Shown here in pieces: positions 1-62,661 of a stretch of DNA of 64,000 nucleotides (within the stretch, counting starts at the first letter, position 1; each line of letters opens with the position of its first letter). The DNA comes from Octopus sinensis. Its lineage: Eukaryota. Location: NCBI RefSeq assembly GCF_006345805.1, contig NC_043005.1, positions 16,182,001-16,246,000 of the forward strand. The letters are read 5' to 3'. A program made the position numbers and the translations under genes. The notes under the pieces are model-generated. The model ran no database searches. It was given only the letters and a program-made list of their open reading frames with translations, and was not told the DNA's origin.

Positions 1-775
1 TCCGGAACGTTCGTGCCGATTTCTAAAGGAAAGAAAAAGGTCAATAAATACTTGCCATTACATTTTTAATCAACCAAATATGAACCATTTTGTTGTACAA
101 TGCGTCTCCATCTTTCCTTTAACTTGAAAATACCCTCTTCCCAGAATTGAGGTGGTTTCATGGCAAAGGTATCTTTTTACGTCATCCAAGGAATTGAAAT
201 TTTTACCATTAAGACTATTCTTCTCACTCAACTAATGTGGTACCCAAACATCGTAGCAATTTGTGTACCGAAGCTTTACCAGGTGCTCATGAACGACAGA
301 TTCTGATAGGTTGAGAGTTTCTGCCATTTCTCGAGTTGTGCAATGTTGGTTATTCTCAATTAATGACTTGATTTGGTCATCATCTATAGTGGATGGTCTA
401 CCTGATTGCACTTTATCAATAAGGCTATAATCTCCAGCTCGGAACCTTGCGAACCACTTCCGTAAAGTTCTTTCGGATAAAGAAACATCACCGTAAACTG
501 CGCATATTTCTTTGGTTGCTTGTGAGGCAATTTTCCCTTTACGGAAAAAGAAAAGTATCAAGTGCCGAAAATGAACTTTCTTATTTTCCATTTTAAAGAG
601 TTACAGAATTAACACAGGTTATAGGAACATAAACCTTCTTCTACGAAAAGATAGCTTAAACTATGCTCTAAATGGAGGTGTAGTCAAATCTTATTTTTTG
701 GACTCAACCATGTTCTAAAATAAGTCGAAAAGTAAGCTACTATAAATCAGCATGGATTTTCCGGATAACCCAATA
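1..775 (-). mobile_element. Internally deleted mariner (Tc1/mariner) DNA transposon; left end runs off the window
   Basis: ORF 232-591 is a mariner N-terminal HTH region ending in WVPH. It continues past a stop into the C-terminal tail (NSLNGKNFNSLDDV...FWEEGIFKLKERWRRIVQQNGSYLVD). TIR at 744-773 is followed by TA and its reverse complement resembles 1-22. Confidence 0.88.
232..591 (-). pseudogene. Mariner transposase N-terminal (HTH) remnant
   Basis: HFRHLILFFFRKG...ICAVYG...WFARFRAGDYSL.D...SGRP...WVPH motifs; catalytic domain absent. Confidence 0.88.
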
Positions 776-4276: not shown

Positions 4277-5441
4277 TCTCTGACCTGAGGATATCCCCAG
4301 CCCTCCTTATAACCAGTCTTGGAGGCTTTAGAAAAGACGACGAACCTTACCCTTTCTCTCAAATTAAGGCATTATAAAATTATTTTAAAATCTTAATACA
4401 TTAACCAAACTGTCCAGTGTATCTCTGATCTGAGGATGTCTCCAGACCACCTTATAACCAGTCTTAGAGGCTTTAGAAAGGAAGACGAATCTCTTTTCTC
4501 TCAGATTAAGGCATTATAAGATTATTTTAAATCTCTTCAGATACATTAATTAACCAAACTGTCCAGCGTATCTCTGATCTGCGGATTCTTCCAAACCACC
4601 TTATAAAAAAACCAGTCTTAGAGCGTTAGAAAGGAAGACGATCTCTTTTCTCTCAGATTAAGGCATTATAAGATTATTTTAAAATCTTCAGAATACATTA
4701 ACCAAACTGTCCAGTGTATCTCTGATCTGAGGATGTCTCCAGACCACCTTATAACCAGTCTTAGAGGCTTTAGAAAGGAAGACGAATCTCTTTTCTCTCA
4801 AATTAAGGCATTATAAGATTATTTTAAAATCTTCAGAATACATTAACCAAACTGTCCAGTGTATCTCTGATCTGAGGATGTCTCCAGACCACCTTATAAC
4901 CAGTCTTAGAGGCTTTAGAAAGGAAGACGAATCTCTTTTCTCTCAAATTAAGGCATTATAAGATTATTTTAAAATCTTCAGAATACATTAACCAAACTGT
5001 CCAGTGTATCTCTGATCTGAGGATGTCTCCAGACCACCTTATAACCGTCTTAGAGGCTTTAGAAAGGAAGACGAATCTCTTTTCTCTCAAATTAAGGCAT
5101 TATAAGATTATTTTAAAATCTTCAGAATACATTAACCAAACTGTCCAGTGTATCTCTGATCTGAGGATGTCTCCAGACCACCTTATAACCAGTCTTAGAG
5201 GCTTTAGAAAGGAAGACGAATCTCTTTTCTCTCAAATAAGGCATTATAAGATTATTTTAAAATCTTCAGAATACATTAACCAACTGTCCAGTGTATCTCT
5301 GATCTGAGGATGTCTCCAGACCACCTAAACCAGTCTTAGAGGCTTTAGAAAGGAAGACGAATCTCTTTTCTCTCAGATTAAGGCATTATAAGATTATTTT
5401 AAAATCTTCAGAATACATTAACCAAACTGTCCAGCGTATCT
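4277..5441. repeat. Tandem satellite, ~145-bp unit, ~8 copies
   Basis: CCAGTCTT(A/G)GAG recurs at ~4313, 4458, 4612, 4755, 4900, 5045, 5189, 5330. Inner copies are near-identical and the first copy is diverged. Confidence 0.95.
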
Positions 5442-6116
5442 CACGAAAATCTAAAGACGGCGTTCAGGTTTCTGCCGTTGGTTCACTTGCCCTTATACTT
5501 GTTACTACTGCTGCTACAATTGTTGTTGATTCTGCTGTTGTTTATGCTTATGTTAATCTGTTTGGTATAATTTTTCGGTCTTCTCTTTGTTGTCTTCTTG
5601 AGAGAACGAGAGCATCCCACATGCCAAAAATGACAGCTGTTTTAATTCAGAAGGTGATACGAAGATAAACATCTCAGATTTCCGGTAAAGACTCTTTTTA
5701 CTTTTTCTTTTTTCATTTTTCTATTTTTTAAAAATATTTCAGTTCTTATTTGTATGCATGTAATCATGCATACAGGAAACGCAATATGGCCGATTAGACA
5801 ATCATTCATTCGTGTACAAGTTTTAATCATTGCACTAAGGCCGTGCGGGGGCACTGCCTTTAAGGGTTTTAGTCGATTATATGGGTGCAATATTTCGTTT
5901 CGTATTTATTTTATGGACCTTAGAGAAGGACAGAAATAGTGATTATCTGAGCTAAAGAGGGGGCTACAGAAACAAAATTATGGCCAACAATTTTCTCACG
6001 ATATATCGTTTTTTTTACCATCCTGCACCGATGCATACACACATATCGACACACAACCACAAAGATATAACTACATGTGTGTGAGTGTGTGTGTGTGTGT
6101 GTCTGTGTGTCTGTGT

Positions 6117-6860
6117 GCACAAGGCCTCACATTTGGGGTAAAGGATTAAGTCGATTACATCAACCGCAGTGCGTAACTGGTACTTATTTAATCGATCCCG
6201 AAAGGATGAAAGGCAAAGTCAACCTCGGCAGAATTTGAACTCAGAACGTAGCGACAGACGAAATACCTATTTCTTTACTACCCACAAGGGGCTAAACACA
6301 GAGAAGACAAACAAGGACAGACAAACGGATTAAGTCGATTATATCGACCCCAGTGCGTAAATGGTACTTAATTTATCTACCCCGAAAGGATGAAAGGCAA
6401 AGTCGACCTCGACGGAATTTGAACTCGGAACGTAGCGGCAGACGAAATTCCTATTTCTTTACTACCCACAAGGGGCTAAACACAGAAGGGACAAGCAAGG
6501 ACAGACAAACGGATTAAGTCGATTATATCCACCCCAGTGCGTAACTGGTACTTATTTAATCGATCTCGAAAGGATGAAAGGCAAAGTCAGCCTCGGCGTA
6601 ATTTGAACTCAGAACGTAGCGACAGACGAAATACCTATTTCTTTACTACCCACAATGGGCTAGGGGACAAACAAGGACAGACAAACGGATTAAGTCGATT
6701 ATATCGACCCCAGTGCGTAACTGGTACTTAATTTATCTACCCCGAAAGGATGAAAGGCAAAGTCGACCTCGGCGGAATTTGAACTCAGAACGTAGCGGCA
6801 GACGAAATACCGCCAAGCATTTCGTCTGGCGTGCTAACGATTCTGCCAACTCGCCGCCTT
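6117..6860 (-). mobile_element. SINE family A multimer (one head plus four ~183-bp bodies)
   Basis: Head AAGGCGGCGAGTTGGCAGAATCGTTAGC, B-box GAGTTCAAATTCC, central GCCTTTCATCCTTTCGGGGTCGATAAATTAAGTACCAG repeated four times. Confidence 0.88.
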
Positions 6861-9304: not shown

Positions 9305-11010
9305 TAAAACTTAGATAAAACTTAGATATGTTTCGACCAGAGATTGGTCCAGGCCATGTCTAACTTAATAGCACCACCTGATAGGATTATTCGAATCCTG
9401 TTTAAGTCAAGTTTTGTTCAAGTAGTGAGTTCTTGTTGGGTGAGTTGTATCCAGTTTTGTTCAAGTAGTGAGTTCTTGTTGGGTGAGTTGTATCCAATTA
9501 TGGGTGGCTTGTCTGGTATTCTTTGAAGGAATCTATCCAGACTCTGTTTGAAGTTGATGGGATCCTTTTCCTCTTTGATCTCCCTCGGGACAATGTTAAA
9601 TAGGGCAGGGCCTGTTGAGGAAAAAAATTATGTTGCAGTGTACATGTATGTTGTGATCTTGAATTTGGCAGGGGACGTATAGCCCGTGGTCCAAGTCTCG
9701 GATGAACCTTGAAGCTAATGTTTAGTCGTTGGGCAAAGTTGGCGGTATATTTTCCACATCGTACAAATGATGTACCGCTCACGGCGACGCTGGAGGGAGT
9801 AAAGTTTCAAGGCTTTAAGGCGATCCCAATAGTCGAGAGCAGCCATGCCTTCAATTGTTTAGTAAGAGCCCTCTGGGTGACTCAATTCTGGAGATGTTTT
9901 GTCTTGTGTGAGGAGACCACAGTGGGCAGCAGTATTCAAGGTGTGGCCGTACAAAGGATGAAAAAAGTGGTATGATGACACCTTGTTCTCTGGACCGGAA
10001 AGTTCTTAAGATCCAGGAACTCATCCTACGAGCTGTATCGACCTTCTTGTTGATGTGTGCACTCCAACTGAGATCGTCATCAACAATTACACCCAGGTCT
10101 CTGATATTGTTAGAGGCTGTGAGCGGTTCCCCTGAAGGAAGAGAGTATTGTTGTTTTAGTGAGGAATTTCTTCCAAAATGCATCAGCTCAAATTTTCCCC
10201 TCATTCAGTTGCATTTTGTTTCTGTCTGCCCATTGACTCACAGCATATAGGTCAGACTGGAGTTGAGTTCGGTCTGCTTCTTCATTGACGATTTGCTGGA
10301 GCTTAGTGTCATCAGCGAATATTTTCACTTTGCAGTGATGTACGACACTGGAAAGGTCGTTTACATAAATTATGAAGAGTAGCGGACCCAAAACAGTTCC
10401 CTGGGGAACACCGCTGGTGACTTTTGCTGGGTTGAGTGGACTCCATCAACTACAACATGTTGTGTTCTATTCGCTAGGAAATACTGAATCCAGTGTAGAA
10501 CTTTTCCACGGATTCCAACATTTGCCAATTTTGAGAGTAGGATGTTATGGTCTACCCTGTCGAACGCTTTACTGAAGTCAAGGTATATGACGTCAGAGTT
10601 CGAACCTGTTCCCAAGGCTTTGAGTACATCTTCAATGTGGTGTAAGAGCTGTGTTAGACAGTCCCTGCCACAGCGAAAGCCATGTTGATTTGAATTTAGG
10701 AGTTTGTGGGTCTCCAGGAAGTCAGCTATCCTTGATCTTAACACTCTTTCAAACACTTTAATGATGTGGGAGGTGAGTGAGATTGGGCGATAGTTGACTG
10801 CGAGGATCTGTTTCCCTGTTTGAAAACCGGGATGACCGACTGGGATAGAAACTTTTTCGGTATAAACCTGCGTCTAACGAGTTTCTCCAGAGGTTGGTCA
10901 GAGGGACTGCAAGTTGATTCTACATTCTCCTTCAGGAGACTGGCGGGAAATCTATCAGGGCTACAGCGGAGTAATGTTTGACCTCATTTATTGCTGCTAC
11001 GATGTCCCAG
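9305..11010 (-). mobile_element. 5'-truncated CR1-group LINE (RT domain and 3' end)
   Basis: Frameshifted ORFs give NYRPISLTS, NQHGFR, DFSKAFD, GPLLFIIYVND, FADDTK, RDLGV, VRPHLEYC. Short tandem 3' tail (TCTAAGTTTTA) at ~9305-9328; internal 43-bp tandem duplication at 9410-9495. Confidence 0.92.
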
Positions 11011-13555
11011 GAACGGGCGGAGTTCTCGTCGGGTCCAAGAGCGAGGTGCATGCGGCGCGTATGCGTGCACGAACCGGCGCAAGCGCGTGTGTGCGCGCGC
11101 CTGCGAGTATGCGCGTAAGTATGTATGTGTGTGGATGTGTGAGTGTGTCTGTGTGTATGTCTGGGTGGCAGTGTGTCCGATGAATGTATGTGAGTATGTG
11201 TGTATGTAGTGTGTGCATAGATGTATGTCCGTGTGGGTGTGTGTGTGTGTATGTGTATGAGTGTGTATGTATGTACGTGTGGGTGTGGGGAAGTGTGTGT
11301 ATGTGCATGTGTGTGCGCGTACATACAGGTGTGTGAGTGAGTGTGTGTGTGTGTATGTATGTGTGAGTGTGTATGTATGTGGTGTAGGATGCATGTATGT
11401 GTATGGGTGTTTGTATGCGTGTGTGGTGTATGTATGTATGTGTACGTGCGTGTGTGTGTGTGTATGCGTGTAGGTGTGCGCGTGTGCATGCATGCATGCA
11501 TGCATGTGCGTATGTGTGTGTGTGTGTGCATGTGTGTGGGTATATATGTATGTGCGTATATGTGTGTGTATGTGCGTACATGTGTGTGTGTGTATGCATG
11601 TGTGTGTATGTAGGTGTGGTAGGGTGTGTGTATAGGTGTATGTATGTAAGTATGTATGGGTGTGTCCGTGTATGTGTGTGTATGTATGTGTGTGCATGTA
11701 GGTGTGTGGGCGTGTGTATATGTGTGTGTATGTAGGTGTGTGGGCGTGTGTATATAGGTGTTTGTGTGTATGTCTGGGTGTGTCCGTGCATGTTTGTGTG
11801 TGTGTGTGTATGCATGTGTATGTAGGTGTGTGTGTACGTGTGTAATGTATGTGTGTATGCGTGTGTATGCGTGCGGTGTGTGTATGTAGGTGCTGTGTGT
11901 ATGTGTGTGGAGTGTAGGTGTGTGTGTGCGTGTGCGTGTTTATGTTGGTGTGTGCGTATGTGAGTGTGAGTGTATGGGTGTTTGTCATGCATGTGTGTGC
12001 GCGTGCGGGTGAGTGTGTGTGTAAGTATGTGTGTGTGTATGTTTGTGTGAGTGTGTATGTGTGTATGTCTGTGTGTATGTATGTGCGTATAGGAGTATGT
12101 AGGTATGTGTGTGTGTATGTATATGGGTGTATGTATGTATGTGTGTGTGTGTGCATGTGTATAAGTATATGTGTGTGTGCGTATGTGTGTGTATGTGTAT
12201 GTGTGTGTGTTTATGTATGTGTGTATGTATGTGTGTAGGCGTGTGTGTGTAGATGTATGTATGTATGGGTGTGTGTCTGTGTGTGTTTGTGTGTGTGTGT
12301 AGGTAGATGTGTGTGTCTGAGTGAGGGTATGGCTGTGTAGGTGTGTGTGTGTATGAATGTAAGTGTGTGTGTATACAAGTGTAATGTATGTATGTAGGTG
12401 TGTGTGTGTGTCTATGTGTACGTGTGCGTGTGTATGTGTGTGTGTGTATGCGTGTGAGTGTGAGTGTATGGGTGTATGTCTGTGTGTGTGTATGTCTGAA
12501 GTAGGTATGTGTGTGTATGTATGTATGTGTGTGTGTGCAGGTATGTGTGTGTGTGTGTATGTTTGTGTGTGAGTAGGTGTGCGTGTATGTATGTGGGTAG
12601 GGATGCATGCGAGTGTGTGGGTATGTATGCATACATACGCATGCGCACATCCGAAGCAAGCCCACACACACGAAGCGCGCTCACGCACACAACGCACAAG
12701 CAGTACAACGCAGGCCCAAGGGGACGACCAAGCCCCCAGCGCGCGCCAAGGCGCGCGAGCGCAAAGGCCCTCGAACGCCCCGCTACGCGGGAACCGAGGA
12801 TCCATCAGCCAAAACCGGAAAGAAAAGAGGGGGGCTGCCTGGATGCAAAAAGGTGTATGTGTGTGTGCATTCAGTGTAAGGGTGTGCATGTGTGGGTATG
12901 TATGTATGTATGTGACTACATGTATGTGTGCATGTGTGTGTGTGTGAAGTATGTACGTGCGGTGTGTGTGTGTGAGTGTGTGTGTATGTATGTGCGTATG
13001 TATGTGTGTGTATGTGTGTATGTATGTCTGTGTGCGTGTGTGTGTGTAAGTATGTATGTGTGTGCGTATGTATGTATGTGTGTGTGTATGTGCATGTTGG
13101 TTTGTATGTTAGTGTGTGCTAGTATGTCTGTAAGTGTGTGTGATTAAATGTGTGAATGTATGTACGTAGATGGGTCTACGTATGTGTGTGTGTGAACAGG
13201 CGTGTGGGAGGTAGGTGGGTGGGTGTGTGTGGGTGGTGTGTCCACAAGAAAAAAAAAACGGATCTCAAGAGGAGGGGGCTGTGTTAAGTCCGTGTGGGGT
13301 GGTAGTTTGTAGGGTGAAGATGTAGCGTTGCTCCAAGTGGAGCCTGGAAAGTGGGCGACCATTGTGGGGGGCGAGACCAAACACTGAGATGTCATCTAGG
13401 GAATGGCCGGCCGAGCGGAAGTGGCGTGCGACGGGAGAAAAAGAGTGTAGGCGAACGTCCCTCAAGTGTTCAGTGAAACGGTCGGACAATCGGCGTCCCG
13501 TCTGTCCTACATACAGCATCCCGCATAGGTTGCATTTAATGCAGTAAATAAGGCC
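11011..13555 (-). mobile_element. 5'-truncated Penelope-like element: GIY-YIG domain plus long CA-rich 3' region
   Basis: GIY-YIG coding at 13265-13555; the distal non-coding part (~11025-11430) is homologous, inverted, to ~16240-16640. Confidence 0.75.
13265..13555 (-). pseudogene. PLE GIY-YIG endonuclease fragment
   Basis: GLIYCIKCNLCGMLYVGQTGRRLSDRFTEH...VARHF...EQRYIFTLQTTTPHGLN, typical of the PLE C-terminal endonuclease. Confidence 0.9.
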
Positions 13556-13647
13556 ATATGTATATATATATATATATATGCATGTAAGTATACTAGTAGA
13601 GATACCCGGCGTTGCTCGGGATAAAACGGCATAGGTTTTTTATTGTG

Positions 13648-24577: not shown

Positions 24578-24994
24578 AAGGCGGCGACCTGGCAGAGACG
24601 TTAGCATGCTGGGCGAAATGCTTAGCGGTATTTTGTCCGCCGCTATGTTCTGAGTTCAAAATCCGCCGAGGTTGACTTTGCCTTTCATCCTTTCGGGGTC
24701 GATTAAATAAGTACCAGTTACGCACTGGGGACGATTACATCGACTTAATACCTATGTCTGTCCTTGTTTTTCCCCTCTGTGTTTAGCCTCTTGTGGGCAG
24801 TAAAGAAATAGATATTTTGTCTGCCGCTAAGTTCTGAGTTCAAATTCCACTGAGGTTGACTTTGCCGTTCATCCTTTCGGGGTCGATAAATTAAATACCA
24901 GTTATGCACTGGGGTCAATCTAATCGACATAATCCCATTGTCTGTTCTTGTTTGTCCCCTCTATGTTTAGCCCCTTGTGGACAATAAAGAAATA
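24578..24994 (+). mobile_element. SINE family A dimer
   Basis: Head plus two bodies joined at ~24811; flanking AGAAGGACG repeat. Confidence 0.85.
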
Positions 24995-28921: not shown

Positions 28922-29505
28922 AAGGCGGCGAGCTGGCAGAAACGTTAGCACGCCGGGCGAAATGCTTTGCGGTATTTCGTCCGCCGCTACGTTCTGAGTT
29001 CAAATTCCGCCGAGGTCGACTTTGCTTTTCATCCTTTCGGGGTCGATAAATTAAGTACCAGTTACGCACTGGGGTCGATGTAATCGACTTAATCTGTTTG
29101 TCTGTCCTTGTTTATCCCCTCTATGTTTAGCCCCTTGTGGGTAGTAAAGAAATAGGTATTTCGTCTGCTGCTACGTTCTGAGTTCAAATTCCACCGCGGT
29201 CGACTTTGCCTTTCAACCTTTCGGGGTCGATAAATTAAGTACCAGTTACGCACTGGGGTCGATATAATCGACTTAATCCCTTTGTCTGTCCTTGTTTGTC
29301 CTCTCTGTGTTTAGCCCTTGTGGTTAGTAAAGAAATAGGTATTTCGTCTGCCGTTACGTTCTGAGTTCAAATTCCACCGAGGTCGACTTTGCTTTCATGC
29401 TCTCAGGATCGATAAATTAAGTAGCAGTTGCATACTAGGGTCTATCTAATCGACTGGCCCCACTCCCTCAAAATTTCGAGCCTTGTGCGTAGAGTAGAAA
29501 AGAAT
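28922..29505 (+). mobile_element. SINE family A trimer
   Basis: Head plus three bodies with junctions at 29155 and 29338 (183-bp period). Confidence 0.9.
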
Positions 29506-30970: not shown

Positions 30971-31564
30971 TACGGCTGTATAGTTTTTATAAAAAACATC
31001 TATAGAAAAAATTCTGCTGATAAAGTGTTTTTCTATGAATAAAAAATTCAGAAAAATTCCTACGAAGACCCCTATGGTAAGTTTGTAAATGAAAATTCTG
31101 TAAAAACTACAGACTGGTAAATAAAATGACGTTTTACTCGTAATCTGTGGCTGTAGGGGGTAACAATTTCGAAAATATGTCAGGAATTTATGCTAAATGG
31201 TTTAATTCTGGGCGTGGTTGATGATGTAAAATATGAATACATTTATACTGCTATTTTGTTCTTTTAGACGATTTAGTCATTGAACCGCGACCATTCTGGA
31301 GCACCACCTTCAAGGGTTTAGTTGATGATATAGACTCCAGTACATGTTTCTCACTTGTAATTATTTTATCAATCGAACAGATAAAAATTCATATAGTACA
31401 GACATATAGTACAGGCACAGGCGTATGTATGTGATTGAGAAGCTTACCTGGCAACCATGTGGTTTCGGATTCATTCTTTCTGCGTGACACTTCAGGCAAG
31501 TGTCTTCTATTCCAAAGCCGGACCGACCAATGCATCTTGCAACCTTTTCAAAAGGTTGCAAGAT

Positions 31565-31732
31565 GCAAGGAAAATTTTAGAAAAATAATGAAGGAAATGA
31601 TTGGAAATTTTACTGGTGACTGTGTTAACTTATAAGGTACTAAAAGAGAATGACTCTCCCCAAACACAACAGAATATGCTTCAACACACGAACTCACATA
31701 AAGAATCTTGCAAACCAAATCCCAAAGCGAAA
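31565..31732. repeat. Unclassified dispersed repeat, second copy at 47257-47410
   Basis: Shared ...TAAGG(T/C)ACTAAAAGAGAATGACTCTCCCCA...AAAGAATCTTG...AAATCCCAAA. Confidence 0.75.
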
Positions 31733-32134
31733 TATATATATATATATATATGTAGAGGATTTTGAAAAGGAACACACGAGTTGATATATATGGGGAAAAG
31801 TCAAGGTAGAAAATGCTAAAATAAATTTATAAAACATTTTGGTACCGGTTTCAGTCATTAAGATTCTTTCAACTCTAAGTATAGAAAACAATTAAATTTT
31901 GGAAAAATTAAAAGAAAAGTTAAAAAAAAAAATTTGCATAGTATTCAAATACATGAGGCATTTTTCTTGTTTCTGCCTGTCTCTGTCTCTCTTGTTTACT
32001 CATGTGGGTTCGAGGTCGTTGACCTCAAACAGGCAGAAACAAGGAAAATGCCCCATGTATTTGAATACTATGCAAATACTCTTTAAAAAAACTTTCTTTT
32101 AATTTTTCCAAAATTTAATTGTTTTCTATACTTA

Positions 32135-32170
32135 CAGTTGAAAAAGTTTCAATAACTGAAACCGGTACTG
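32135..32170 (+). ncRNA. Minimal type I hammerhead-like motif (U3-A8 core); duplicate at 32921-32956
   Basis: CAG-TTGAAAA-AGTT-tcaat-AACT-GAAA-CCGG-TA-CTG. Confidence 0.6.
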
Positions 32171-32275
32171 AAATGTTTTTTATAAAATTATTTTAGCATT
32201 TTCTACCTTGGCTTTTTTCCATATATATATATAGAAAATAGTAAAAAGTGAAAAAACTACAGAAGGCATCGATGT

Positions 32276-32314
32276 AAGAAATTTGAAAAGCTGAACGCGA
32301 AACCGGTCTTTCTT
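32276..32314 (+). ncRNA. Minimal type I hammerhead-like motif (U3-A8 core, one extra U); duplicate at 33060-33098
   Basis: AAGAAA-t-TTGAAAA-GC-tgaac-GC-GAAA-CCGG-TC-TTTCTT. Confidence 0.55.
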
Positions 32315-33897
32315 CAAAAACTATGTCATTGTATGAAAAAAATTTATAACACTCTTCAGACATAATGACTCAAATATATATTTTTTAACCTTCTAAAACA
32401 AGCCTTCTGTAGTTTTTTCACTTTTTACTATTTTCTATATATTCAACCACGTGCTTTCACACACCAACTTTCTCACCTATATATATATATTATATATATA
32501 TATTATATATATATATATATAATATATATATATATATATGTAGAGGATTTTGAAAAGGAACACACGAGTTGATATATATGGGGAAAAGTCAAGGTAGAAA
32601 ATGCTAAAATAAATTTATAAAACATTTTGGTACCGGTTTCAGTCATTAAGATTCTTTCAACTCTAAGTATAGAAAACAATTAAATTTTGGAAAAATTAAA
32701 AGAAAAGTTAAAAAAAAAAATTGCATAGTATTCAAATACATGAGGCATTTTTCTTGTTTCTGCTGTCTCTGTCTCTCTTGTTTACTCATGTGGGTTCGAG
32801 GTCGTTGACCTCAAACAGGCAGAAACAAGGAAAATGCCCCATGTATTTGAATACTATGCAAATACTCTTTAAAAAAACTTTCTTTTAATTTTTCCAAAAT
32901 TTAATTGTTTTCTATACTTACAGTTGAAAAAGTTTCAATAACTGAAACCGGTACTGAAATGTTTTTTATAAAATTATTTTAGCATTTTCTACCTTGGCTT
33001 TTTTCCATATATATATAGAAAATAGTAAAAAGTGAAAAAACTACAGAAGGCATCGATGTAAGAAATTTGAAAAGCTGAACGCGAAACCGGTCTTTCTTCA
33101 AAAACTATGTCATTGTATGAAAAAAATTTATAACACTCTTCAGACATAATGACTCAAATATATATTTTTTAACCTTCTAAAACAAGCCTTCTGTAGTTTT
33201 TTCACTTTTTACTATTTTCTATATATTCAACCACGTGCTTTCACACACCAACTTTCTCACCTATATATATATATATATATACATATATATTATAGATATT
33301 ATTGAAATACAATAGTATTGACAAATGAATGTATCTTTAAAGCATAAAACTATTACTAACTCTTTTGTAATTGTGTATATTCAATATTTATCTCTCACTG
33401 GATAGAGTACTTTTCTTATTAATCCTACCTATAATGGAACTGTAAACTATAAGTATATGTACGTGTGCATGTGTGTGTGTGTGTGTTTATGTAATATGTA
33501 TGTATGTTTCTCTGTCTGTATGCATGTATATATGTATTTATATGTGTTGCACGAGTTTAAGTGTGGATCTGAGACGAGCCCCTGAACTAAAGGCCTTATG
33601 TCGATTGTTTCTTGAAAAATCTATGGAAAGTTATTTTGCTATTATTATATGTAGAGATCAGTAATAATTTGCAACATACACCTCATCTCGAATATATTCA
33701 GGCGAGAAAAGAATTATGTAACTTACCATTTCTCTTAGAAGAACATTAGAGCTTCAAGTGAATTGAACCACTTTCGACTGAAAATCGAAACCTCTTTGCA
33801 ATTTTCTTCTACAACAGATTTTCACTCCATATATGCTTTCTAAGCTAGCACTACGCTTTTTGTTTGAACTAACATTTAGGAAATCAAACTATACAGA

Positions 33898-34810
33898 ATG
33901 GCTCTCAACAAACGCAGCAGTATTGATGTCAGGGACCAGAGAGTGCTACTCAGAGTTGAAGTAGACTTCAATGCACCCACAAAAAATGGCAAGATCACCA
34001 GCCGTCAAAACATTGTTGCTATTCTACCAACTATACAGTATGCTCTGGAGACAACAGTCAAAAGAGTTGTAGCTATGAGTCATTTAAGGAGGCCTTTGAA
34101 AAATATTCTTTGAAATGCGTAGTACCTGAAGAGGAAAATCTCTTGGGAAAATCTCTTACATTTCTTTCTGACTGAGTTGGTCTTGAGACAAAAGCTGCCT
34201 GTAGCAATTCTGATCTTGGCCGTTTTTCTTTTGGAAACTTACATTTCCATATACAAGAAAAGGGTAAAGGAACTGTTGGAAATGGTCAAAAGGTCAAAAC
34301 AAAAATCAGAAGATACTAAAATGTGCCGTTAATCGTTGTCGAAACTAGCTGTTTATGAGAATGATACCTTCGGTACAGCTCACCGACCTCACAGCTCAAT
34401 GGTTGTTGTTCAGATTCCCCTGGTTGCGTTTGGTTTCCTAAAAAAGGAACTAACATATTACTAACGTATTTTACAAAAGGCTCTTGAGAAGCATAGGGAA
34501 CCATTTGTAGCCAAAACTGCAAAGATTAAATTGATTGAGAATTGATTGAAAATTTGATTGAGAAAGTAAATTTGATGATAATTGGTGTGGTGACAAGATT
34601 TTACTTTCCTCAAAGTTCTTAACATGGAGATTGGGGATTCCCTTTTTGATGAAGGGAGTCCCAAAATTGTTACATCGTCTCGTAGAAAAGTCAGAGGAAA
34701 ACAACGTAGTTCTGCCTTTATATTTTATAACTGATGAGATATTTGCTGAAAATGTCACAAATGGACGAGCTAAATTAGTGGAAGGTATTCCTAGATATAT
34801 GGGTTTCTTT
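33898..34810 (+). pseudogene. PGK: Processed phosphoglycerate kinase pseudogene, 3'-truncated
   Basis: [92 protein letters not shown]. Collinear, intronless, many stops and frameshifts. Confidence 0.92.
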
Positions 34811-61807: not shown

Positions 61808-62661
61808 GGGTGAAAAGGAACACACGAGTTGATATATATGAAAAAACAAGTAAAAAATAGAAAATGCTAAAATAATTTTATAGTGAACATTTCAGTACCG
61901 GTTTCGGTCATTTTGAGACCTTTTCAACTGTAACGATTAAATAATTAAATTTAGAAAAATTAGAAGAAAAGTTTTTTTAAAAGAATATTTCTATAGTGGT
62001 GTTCAGATTTAAGTGGCATTCTGCCTTTCTCTGACTCCCTTGTTTGCACTTGTGTGTTCGAGGTAGTTGTGAGCTCTTGGTAGGGTAGTAGAGAGAAGGG
62101 CTGGTGAGGAAAGGGGGTGGGAGAATCTGGGAGTGCCCTGATGGTCGTATTTTGAATGGTCAGTGGCGGCTGGCAGTCTCAGTTCAATTCAGGAGAATAT
62201 TTATATTGATAGGCTTCTTTATAGAATTAGCGTAGGTGTTATACTAAAAACATTAGTGACAAACTTAAGGGGTAGGGGGTGGAGAAGAAAGAAGAAGAAG
62301 AGAAGAAGGAGAAGGAGAAGGAGAAGGAGAAGATGACGATGATGGTGATGGTGGTGATGATTATGACGACGATGATGATGATAACGATGATGATGAAGAA
62401 GAAGAAGAAGAGAAGGAGGAGAAGGAGAAGATGGTGGTGATGATGGTGGCGATGATGATGATGCCGATGATGATGATAACGATGATGATGAAGAAGAAGA
62501 GGAAGAAGAAGAAGAGAGAAAAAACAGAGAAGGGAGAATATGAATGTAAATATAGCTATGAAGGGGCTGATTAGTAATGGATTCTATTGAGTGTAGTATT
62601 TGTGTGTGTATATATATTTTTTTCTTTTATTCTAAAGTTGAGGTATATTAAGTTGAGGTGT
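61808..62661 (-). mobile_element. Inverted PLE 3' end (last codons plus 3' region with hammerhead-like motif)
   Basis: Minus strand starts ..PQLNIPQL*; includes the 62285-62530 microsatellite and the motif at 61893-61930; homologous to 31760-32020. Confidence 0.65.
61893..61930 (-). ncRNA. Minimal type I hammerhead-like motif (U3-A8 core)
   Basis: CAG-TTGAAAA-GGTC-tcaaaat-GACC-GAAA-CCGG-TA-CTG. Confidence 0.65.

What the first reader, a model, noticed from the sequence alone, without database searches (positions are those of the whole stretch)
31751..33262. Tandemly repeated 788-bp fold-back unit with hammerhead-like motifs on both strands (retrozyme- or viroid-like architecture)
Seen: two almost identical units. 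Each has a long hairpin (arms ~31784-31980 and ~32029-32232, centred near a GAGGTC-gtt-GACCTC hairpin) and a second hairpin (~32233-32267/32403-32440). Each has three motifs: degenerate on minus (~31840-31875), and well-formed on plus (32135-32170, 32276-32314). Established: PLE termini carry minimal hammerheads, and tandem hammerhead repeats in animals (retrozymes) give circular RNAs. Inference: read-through transcription cut at equivalent sites would release a highly base-paired ~785-nt monomer that could circularise, possibly a non-autonomous PLE-mobilised RNA element. The arms are visibly diverged while the tandem units are not, so the duplication is recent or an assembly artefact.
Basis: partly seen in the sequence, partly recalled or inferred. 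Interest (0 to 1): 0.75.

Follow-up and report, generated by a model that had tools for sequence, protein, structure and literature searches.

The report
Duplicated pile-up of Penelope retrotransposon ends
The 788-base unit is the cut-off ends of two known-type jumping genes (Penelope-like elements) lying side by side in a TA repeat and present twice in tandem, likely through an ordinary local duplication or an assembly error, so it is not a new self-copying RNA.

Summary
The anatomy is confirmed: two tandem units (0 substitutions, 3 small indels), two fold-backs, and two well-formed U3-A8 minimal hammerheads plus one decayed antisense one per unit. The retrozyme reading is not supported. The unit is two independent insertions. 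Part A (31752-32230) is a head-to-head pair of 3' ends of an older Penelope-like (PLE) family. Part B (32227-32477) is the same structure from a young family. Longer copies of both carry PLE coding sequence (GIY-YIG for A; RT plus a GIY-YIG-type motif region for B). One arm keeps a ~30-35-nt tail and the other lacks it, the published PLE footprint. The A-B junction was found only at this locus (2 of 41 hits). The doubled segment is exactly the interval between two (TA)n tracts. Near-identical two-copy duplications without such hammerheads occur 7 times in 600 kb of arbitrary DNA from this assembly, 5 bounded by simple repeats. Whether the duplication is real or an assembly artefact is unresolved (about even). 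The A hammerhead is predicted to be locked in the long stem (+42 kcal/mol to free). This scan noted similar PLE hairpins and pile-ups elsewhere in this genome. Ordinary; low interest.

The parts
31529..31731 (+). Left flank: end of a third repeat family (C) with a PLE-type footprint (two fixed ends about 50 nt apart, opposite-strand arms, U3-A8 core in other copies). Not part of the duplicated unit; coding link not tested.
31732..31751 (.). Left (TA)n tract, 20 nt: insertion site of A and left boundary of the duplication
31752..32021 (-). Family A arm 1: 5'-truncated PLE 3' end including the ~30-nt tail (about 31752-31783)
   Evidence: aligned end at -7 on a natural reference copy; upstream GIY-YIG in other copies
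31840..31876 (-). Decayed hammerhead of arm 1 (A9>G, stems I and II broken)
32012..32026 (.). Small GAGGTC-gtt-GACCTC fold-back at the head-to-head junction; likely a repair or template-switch scar (inferred)
   Evidence: junctions differ between family copies
32029..32230 (+). Family A arm 2: inverted 5'-truncated copy without tail (ends at -29)
32135..32170 (+). Minimal type I hammerhead of family A (U3-A8 core, 4-bp stem II, palindromic ACCGGU, 3-bp stem I; predicted cut after 32167); predicted to be sequestered in the long stem
32227..32267 (-). Family B short arm, 41 bp, without tail (ends at -35)
32270..32477 (+). Family B long arm: 5'-truncated PLE 3' end with 35-nt tail (32443-32477), 98% identical to other copies
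   Evidence: RT in longer copies
32276..32315 (+). Minimal type I hammerhead of family B (U3-A8 core, 2-bp stem II, ACCGGU; predicted cut after 32308). This variant lacks the A after the cut site that 15 of 32 core-bearing family arms have.
32478..32539 (.). Middle (TA)n tract, 62 nt with interruptions: junction of the tandem copies
32540..33261 (+). Second copy of the A+B composite (hammerheads with predicted cuts after 32953 and 33092); 0 substitutions and 3 small deletions relative to copy 1
33262..33299 (.). Right (TA)n tract: right boundary of the duplication

Best explanation
The unit is two short, dead, head-to-head insertions of Penelope-like retrotransposon 3' ends lying side by side in a (TA)n tract, and the stretch between two TA tracts was likely doubled afterwards by a process unrelated to the ribozymes. 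Step 1 (shown by sequence comparison): family A left a two-armed insertion at the TA end of a third repeat; its arms have since drifted to about 90% identity. Step 2 (order inferred from divergence): a younger family B left a two-armed insertion in the TA run at A's right end; its arms are still identical over 41 of 41 bases. In both, one arm ends with the tail and the other without it. By analogy with the Anolis PLE in vitro (inferred), the enzyme nicks AT-rich DNA on both strands and primes each strand at one of two RT start sites, and the two truncated cDNAs are joined head to head. Step 3 (inferred): slippage or unequal exchange between the flanking TA tracts, or a false overlap or allelic duplication during long-read assembly, doubled the interval. 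The hammerheads are passengers inherited from the PLE terminal repeats.
For: The unit splits into two families in the genome search: query 11-482 at 74-93% identity, and 519-727 at 98-99%. Only this locus spans the A-B junction (2 of 41 hits). Longer B copies carry an RT (Pfam RVT_1, E 2e-7, above cutoff) followed by CxxxxCxxC and a YVG-type endonuclease region. For A, 8 of 28 copies seeded on a single arm show endonuclease or Zn-knuckle motifs upstream, and one matches Pfam GIY-YIG above cutoff. Ends: 23 of 23 distinct two-armed B loci (of 30 examined) have one arm ending at 0 to -7 and the other at -35 to -46, with variable inner junctions. For A, 13 of 19 two-armed loci have the tail on exactly one arm, none on both, and 6 show none. 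This is the footprint described in PMC8557442 and explained in PMC11167929. U3-A8 minimal hammerheads, and pairs on opposite strands 100-700 bp apart, are described for PLE ends in PMC4209133. Background: 7 two-copy tandem duplications of 97.5-99.7% identity in 600 kb, none with a palindromic-stem-III hammerhead and 5 bounded by simple repeats. Three of the 7 have 0 substitutions. L037 is a TA-bounded 897-bp duplicate with 0 substitutions and no such hammerhead.
Against: The B endonuclease stretch gave no Pfam hit, nor did one A stretch (2 of 5 proteins without a hit), so those rest on motifs. Clade placement (Neptune versus Nematis) was not tested with a tree. The locus sets are biased: the and queries favour hairpins, and only 40 candidates are scored per search, so a rare composite copy elsewhere is not excluded. 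The B hammerheads are not predicted to be sequestered (+0.8 kcal/mol), so a doubled locus could in principle be cut twice. No read evidence on the duplication was obtained.
Confidence: 0.9

Rival explanations
1. Sub-case of the best reading: the tandem copy does not exist in the animal. It is a false duplication made by the assembler at the TA tracts (under-collapsed reads, or two alleles placed in tandem).
For: All 3 differences are run-length deletions in unit 2. The C missing at 32762 is present in family copies and in contigs of runs X2 and X3. Background duplicates are all at least 97.5% identical, with none between 87 and 97% apart from one satellite array. The lower-identity pairs inspected look like dispersed repeats or minisatellites (5 of 7 rows viewed). 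False duplication is a documented assembly error (PMC9516828, passages).
Against: The middle TA tract (62 nt) is longer than the left tract (20 nt) plus the pure part of the right tract (about 20 nt), so a simple false overlap does not give it. Young real duplicates that are quickly lost again would also lack an older age class.
Confidence: 0.5
2. Sub-case of the best reading: the duplication is real and very recent, made by slippage or unequal recombination between the two (TA)n tracts, and is functionally neutral.
For: The boundaries fall exactly in the TA tracts. 0 substitutions in about 724 bp gives an upper bound of 0.4%, against about 10% between the A arms. L177 shows a whole B hairpin doubled with its microsatellite flank.
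Against: A density of about one per 85 kb, all nearly identical, would need very fast turnover. No read support was obtained.
Confidence: 0.42
3. The unit is, or is becoming, a non-LTR retrozyme: read-through RNA is cut at the two B hammerheads acting as a dimer, the 784-nt monomer circularises, and family-B enzyme re-inserts it.
For: Two same-strand B hammerheads lie 784 nt apart with palindromic stem III. They are not locked in the long stem. The monomer would keep B's tail region. Minimal hammerheads cleave weakly as dimers (PMC4209133). Animal retrozymes derive from PLE ends (bioRxiv 10.64898/2026.07.22.740005, abstract to methods read).
Against: Found at a single locus. It is a composite of two unrelated insertions. 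The period of 788 bp lies outside the 150-450 bp given in PMC7229834. The pre-duplication locus could only have released a 141-nt piece between its two plus-strand cut sites (32167 to 32308), so the tandem did not arise from an RNA of the unit. B stem I has a pairing probability of 0.03 or less in context. PLE hammerheads are weak or protein-assisted (PMC4209133, PMC11167929).
Confidence: 0.04
4. Part A is a MITE-like fold-back element that moves as a unit.
For: Many dispersed ~450-480-bp hairpin copies exist.
Against: Their central junctions all differ and the tail sits on either side. Of 28 copies found with a single-arm seed, 0 had an opposite arm within about 1.5 kb, and many continue upstream into PLE coding sequence.
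Confidence: 0.02

Closest known systems
C-terminal-endonuclease Penelope-like elements with the CX2-5CxxC linker (Neptune/Nematis type; PMC8557442)
   Same: RT followed by a CxxxxCxxC knuckle and GIY-YIG in longer copies; 5'-truncated head-to-head insertions; 30-40-bp tail at one end only; (TA)n targets; hammerhead in the terminal repeat.
   Different: The copies here are short non-coding remnants. Neptune versus Nematis was not resolved (no tree built).
PLE minimal hammerheads (Cervera and de la Pena 2014, PMC4209133)
   Same: Type I, small palindromic helix III, U3-A8 core covariant, pairs on opposite strands 100-700 bp apart.
   Different: Stem II is short here (4 bp in A, 2 bp in B). A has A10.1-U11.1 where the related family A' has G-C.
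PAc Poseidon element of Anolis (Frangieh et al. 2024, PMC11167929)
   Same: Two fixed ends bounding a tail; AT-rich targets; both strands extended, which would give head-to-head arms.
   Different: Different PLE clade and host; the mechanism is transferred here by analogy only.
Metazoan non-LTR retrozymes (PMC7229834; bioRxiv 10.64898/2026.07.22.740005)
   Same: Tandem units, each with a type I hammerhead; low GC (29%); no protein.
   Different: Found at one locus only, a composite of two PLE insertions, a 788-bp period, no transcript or circle shown, and the tandem is explained by flanking TA tracts.

Membership tests
EN+ Penelope-like element (parent families A and B) | RT domain upstream of the terminal repeat | tested here: met
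   B: RVT_1 in L038. A: RT core not reached in the fetched 1.5-kb flanks. The related family A' (75% identical end) shows RT thumb-like sequence by eye.
EN+ Penelope-like element (parent families A and B) | C-terminal GIY-YIG endonuclease with CCHH motif and upstream CX2-5CxxC | tested here: met
   A: Pfam GIY-YIG above cutoff in L096; A' below cutoff. B: motifs CGRPNCATC and CSGC...YVG...H...H by translation, but no Pfam hit.
EN+ Penelope-like element (parent families A and B) | 5'-truncated inverted copies and a 30-40-bp tail at one end | tested here: met
   B 23 of 23 two-armed loci; A 13 of 19.
EN+ Penelope-like element (parent families A and B) | Minimal hammerhead in the terminal repeat | tested here: met
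   Core found in 43 of 66 A arms (15 pass a strict stem test) and in 32 of 37 B arms.
Neptune clade specifically | RT phylogeny | not tested
   No reference PLE sequences were on hand; only the linker motif was seen.
Metazoan non-LTR retrozyme | At least two consecutive tandem units each with a complete type I hammerhead | tested here: met
   if the duplication is real. It would pass the purely structural screen of the 2026 preprint, subject to its MFE filter.
Metazoan non-LTR retrozyme | Unit forms a dispersed family (mobile as a unit) | tested here: not met
   A-B junction in 2 of 41 hits, both at this locus; one search agrees. Only 40 candidates were scored per search.
Metazoan non-LTR retrozyme | Monomer of about 150-450 bp | tested here: not met
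   Period 784-788 bp; range from PMC7229834 passages.
Metazoan non-LTR retrozyme | Expressed as linear and circular monomer RNA; self-cleavage | not testable with these tools
   No raw RNA reads available; cleavage needs a bench assay.

The most novel reading that the evidence does not exclude
A snapshot of retrozyme birth: a microsatellite-bounded DNA duplication, a frequent event in this genome if real, puts two PLE hammerheads in tandem. This creates a cassette that releases a 784-nt rod-like circle carrying the family-B RT start sites, which an active family-B enzyme can re-insert. L177 would be a second such seed.
Probability: 0.04. Interest if true: 0.55.

Novelty: new member of a known kind. 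Interest (0 to 1): 0.15.

Why it matters
As best explained it matters little: two more PLE families with a textbook insertion footprint. It is a useful caution. Screens that call any tandem repeat with two hammerheads an 'active retrozyme' would count loci like this one, and this assembly has near-identical tandem duplicates about every 85 kb that may be artefacts. The strict one-arm-per-end pairing in family B (23 of 23) fits a model in which each target strand is primed at a different RT start site, which can be tested in the published in vitro system.

Tried and rejected
Rfam scan: no hammerhead among the listed matches, uninformative for minimal U3-A8 motifs. Sequencing runs: no RNA holder listed, and the best DNA holder shares 0.51 of the words. 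Laying contigs of four runs on 32700-33450 and 31540-31830 gave only family-level fragments. No listed contig bridged the A-B junction, the unit junction or an empty site; three runs had no cover and one a trace at 33298-33349; 31721-31830 was skipped as repeat. These calls say nothing on whether the duplication is real. A first guess that a short frame at about 62150-62200 was the endonuclease end of family A' was wrong: the ORF ends about 400 bp further upstream. The apparent clustering of A junctions at one point was a selection effect of the hairpin query. A domain scan of 134 of 177 stop-free window stretches found only transposon domains, a PGK fragment and a below-cutoff LRR hit on a minisatellite; short exons would be missed, so host transcription across the locus is unknown. 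A look-up of earlier scan findings by sequence returned nothing. MITE and viroid-like readings were rejected as above.

Full report
Observation. The window lies in a 2.72-Gb animal assembly; earlier notes of this scan call it an octopus, which I did not check. The two units (31752-32477, 32540-33261) differ by no substitution and three run-length deletions in unit 2. The long fold-back has 176 of 196 aligned bases identical, and the short one is 41 of 41. My descriptor found four plus-strand hammerheads in the two units and one at 61927-61896 on the minus strand, and none in 20 shuffles. All have the U3-A8 core and a palindromic ACCGGU stem III. The minus-strand motif at 31840-31876 is decayed.

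Two families, not one unit. A genome search with the unit gave 93 matches from 40 scored of 5554 candidates. Outside this locus they fall into query 11-482 (family A, 74-93% identity) or 519-727 and its 41-bp inverse (family B, 98-99%). A search with the 131-bp A-B junction gave 41 matches; only the two units here cover it whole.

Family B. Longer copies continue upstream into an ORF with an RT (Pfam RVT_1 above cutoff in L038), a CGRPNCATC knuckle and a YVG-type endonuclease with CxxC and two histidines. The endonuclease stretch itself gave no Pfam hit. Of 30 distinct B loci examined (32 rows, two duplicates), 23 are two-armed. In all 23, one arm ends at 0 to -7 and the other at -35 to -46, while the inner junctions vary from about -40 to -1240. 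The query favoured short hairpins.

Family A. Among 19 distinct two-armed loci, the junctions differ; the ~30-nt tail is on exactly one arm in 13 (displaced by TA expansion in one), on both in none, and not evident in 6. With a single-arm seed, 0 of 28 loci had an opposite arm within the fetched flanks, and 8 of 28 showed endonuclease or knuckle motifs upstream. L096 matches Pfam GIY-YIG above cutoff and L090 has no hit. A young relative, A' (75% identical at the end, with a copy at window 61811 onward), has the same ORF layout. The left flank (31529-31731) is the end of a third family with the same two-ended footprint. The locus is thus a pile-up of C, A and B at a TA tract.

Literature. PMC8557442 (passages) describes an inverted 5'-truncated copy next to the insertion, a 30-40-bp tail often at one end only, (TA)n bias, and the CX2-5CxxC linker of Neptune and Nematis. 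PMC4209133 (parts 1-2 of 4 read, covering results and discussion) describes minimal PLE hammerheads, the U3-A8 covariant, pairs on opposite strands 100-700 bp apart, and low activity only as dimers. PMC11167929 (passages and the second half of the main text) shows both strands cut and extended, two RT start sites bounding the tail, and a protein-assisted hammerhead that is not needed for insertion. PMC7229834 (passages) defines non-LTR retrozymes as 150-450-bp tandem repeats expressed as circles. The 2026 preprint (part 1 of 5) derives them from PLE ends; its supplements were not seen. PMC9516828 (passages) documents false duplications. I make no claim that these families are unpublished.

The tandem. 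The doubled segment is exactly the interval between the left (20 nt) and right TA tracts, with a 62-nt TA tract at the joint. In 60 arbitrary 10-kb stretches (600 kb) I found 7 two-copy tandem duplications of 236-2227 bp at 97.5-99.7% identity, after setting aside one satellite array (L111). None has a palindromic-stem-III hammerhead. Five are bounded by TTA, T, TG, TG or CA repeats, and L144 and L153 are not. Three have no substitution in the trimmed core. L037 (897 bp, TA-bounded, 0 substitutions) and L177 (a family-B hairpin doubled with its flank) are further cases among selected loci. The focal duplication is typical of this class, so the hammerheads are not needed to explain it. Real versus artefact is open. 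Run-length-only differences and the missing older age class point to artefact or very fast turnover; the over-long middle tract argues against a simple false overlap. Public contigs could not decide.

Could it still make a circle? In folding predictions the A hammerhead stems have probability 0.0 in the unit and cost 42 kcal/mol to enforce. The B stems cost 0.8 kcal/mol but are weakly populated (stem I 0.03, stem II 0.14), and in the B-to-B span stem I is 0.0 (these models ignore dimeric and tertiary contacts). The predicted 784-nt circle is 78% paired, which merely reflects the PLE hairpins. Before duplication, the two plus-strand cut sites were 141 nt apart, so the unit cannot have been templated by its own monomer RNA. 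An accidental proto-retrozyme is not excluded (about 4%).

Verdict. Known kind: short two-armed remnants of two PLE families with inherited minimal hammerheads, doubled by a generic process or by the assembler. Steps shown: composite nature, PLE parentage, tail pattern, background duplication rate. Steps inferred: order of insertion, the two-strand priming mechanism, the cause of the duplication. Earlier scan notes reported similar footprints elsewhere in this genome; they are not independent support. Interest 0.15.

Noticed in passing
L125, L127, L130, L139, L144, L153, L158 (arbitrary G000 stretches); L037 4261-6079; L177 1387-1948: Near-identical two-copy tandem duplications, mostly bounded by simple repeats, about one per 85 kb of this assembly, with no 87-97% age class. 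Either a systematic assembly artefact or an unusually active microsatellite-mediated duplication process.
   Followed up: partly
window 33898-34500 (+): Intronless, broken phosphoglycerate kinase fragment (Pfam PGK, E 1.8e-13; stops), likely a processed pseudogene.
   Followed up: partly
window 61811-62600 and beyond (-): Young copy of a related PLE family A' (98-99% identical to the 39 other scored copies) with an intact U3-A8 hammerhead at 61927-61896 and a long CTT/CAT microsatellite in its 3' region.
   Followed up: partly
window 31529-31731: Third PLE-type family C with two fixed ends about 50 nt apart and a U3-A8 core with a 5-bp stem II in other copies; whether it has a coding parent was not tested.
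   Followed up: partly
window 32145-32157: Stem II of the plus-strand A hammerhead carries a compensatory pair change (C-G to U-A) relative to the commonest family variant; each single change also occurs alone in other copies, so it may be chance.
   Followed up: partly
window 235-600 (-), 10191-10873 (-), 13268-13639 (-): Mariner-type transposase HTH fragment, RT fragments and a GIY-YIG fragment.
   Followed up: no
window 4277-5442; 6143-6811, 24629-24994, 28971-29455: A 145-bp minisatellite (8 copies) and tandem arrays of a 184-bp SINE-like unit.
   Followed up: no
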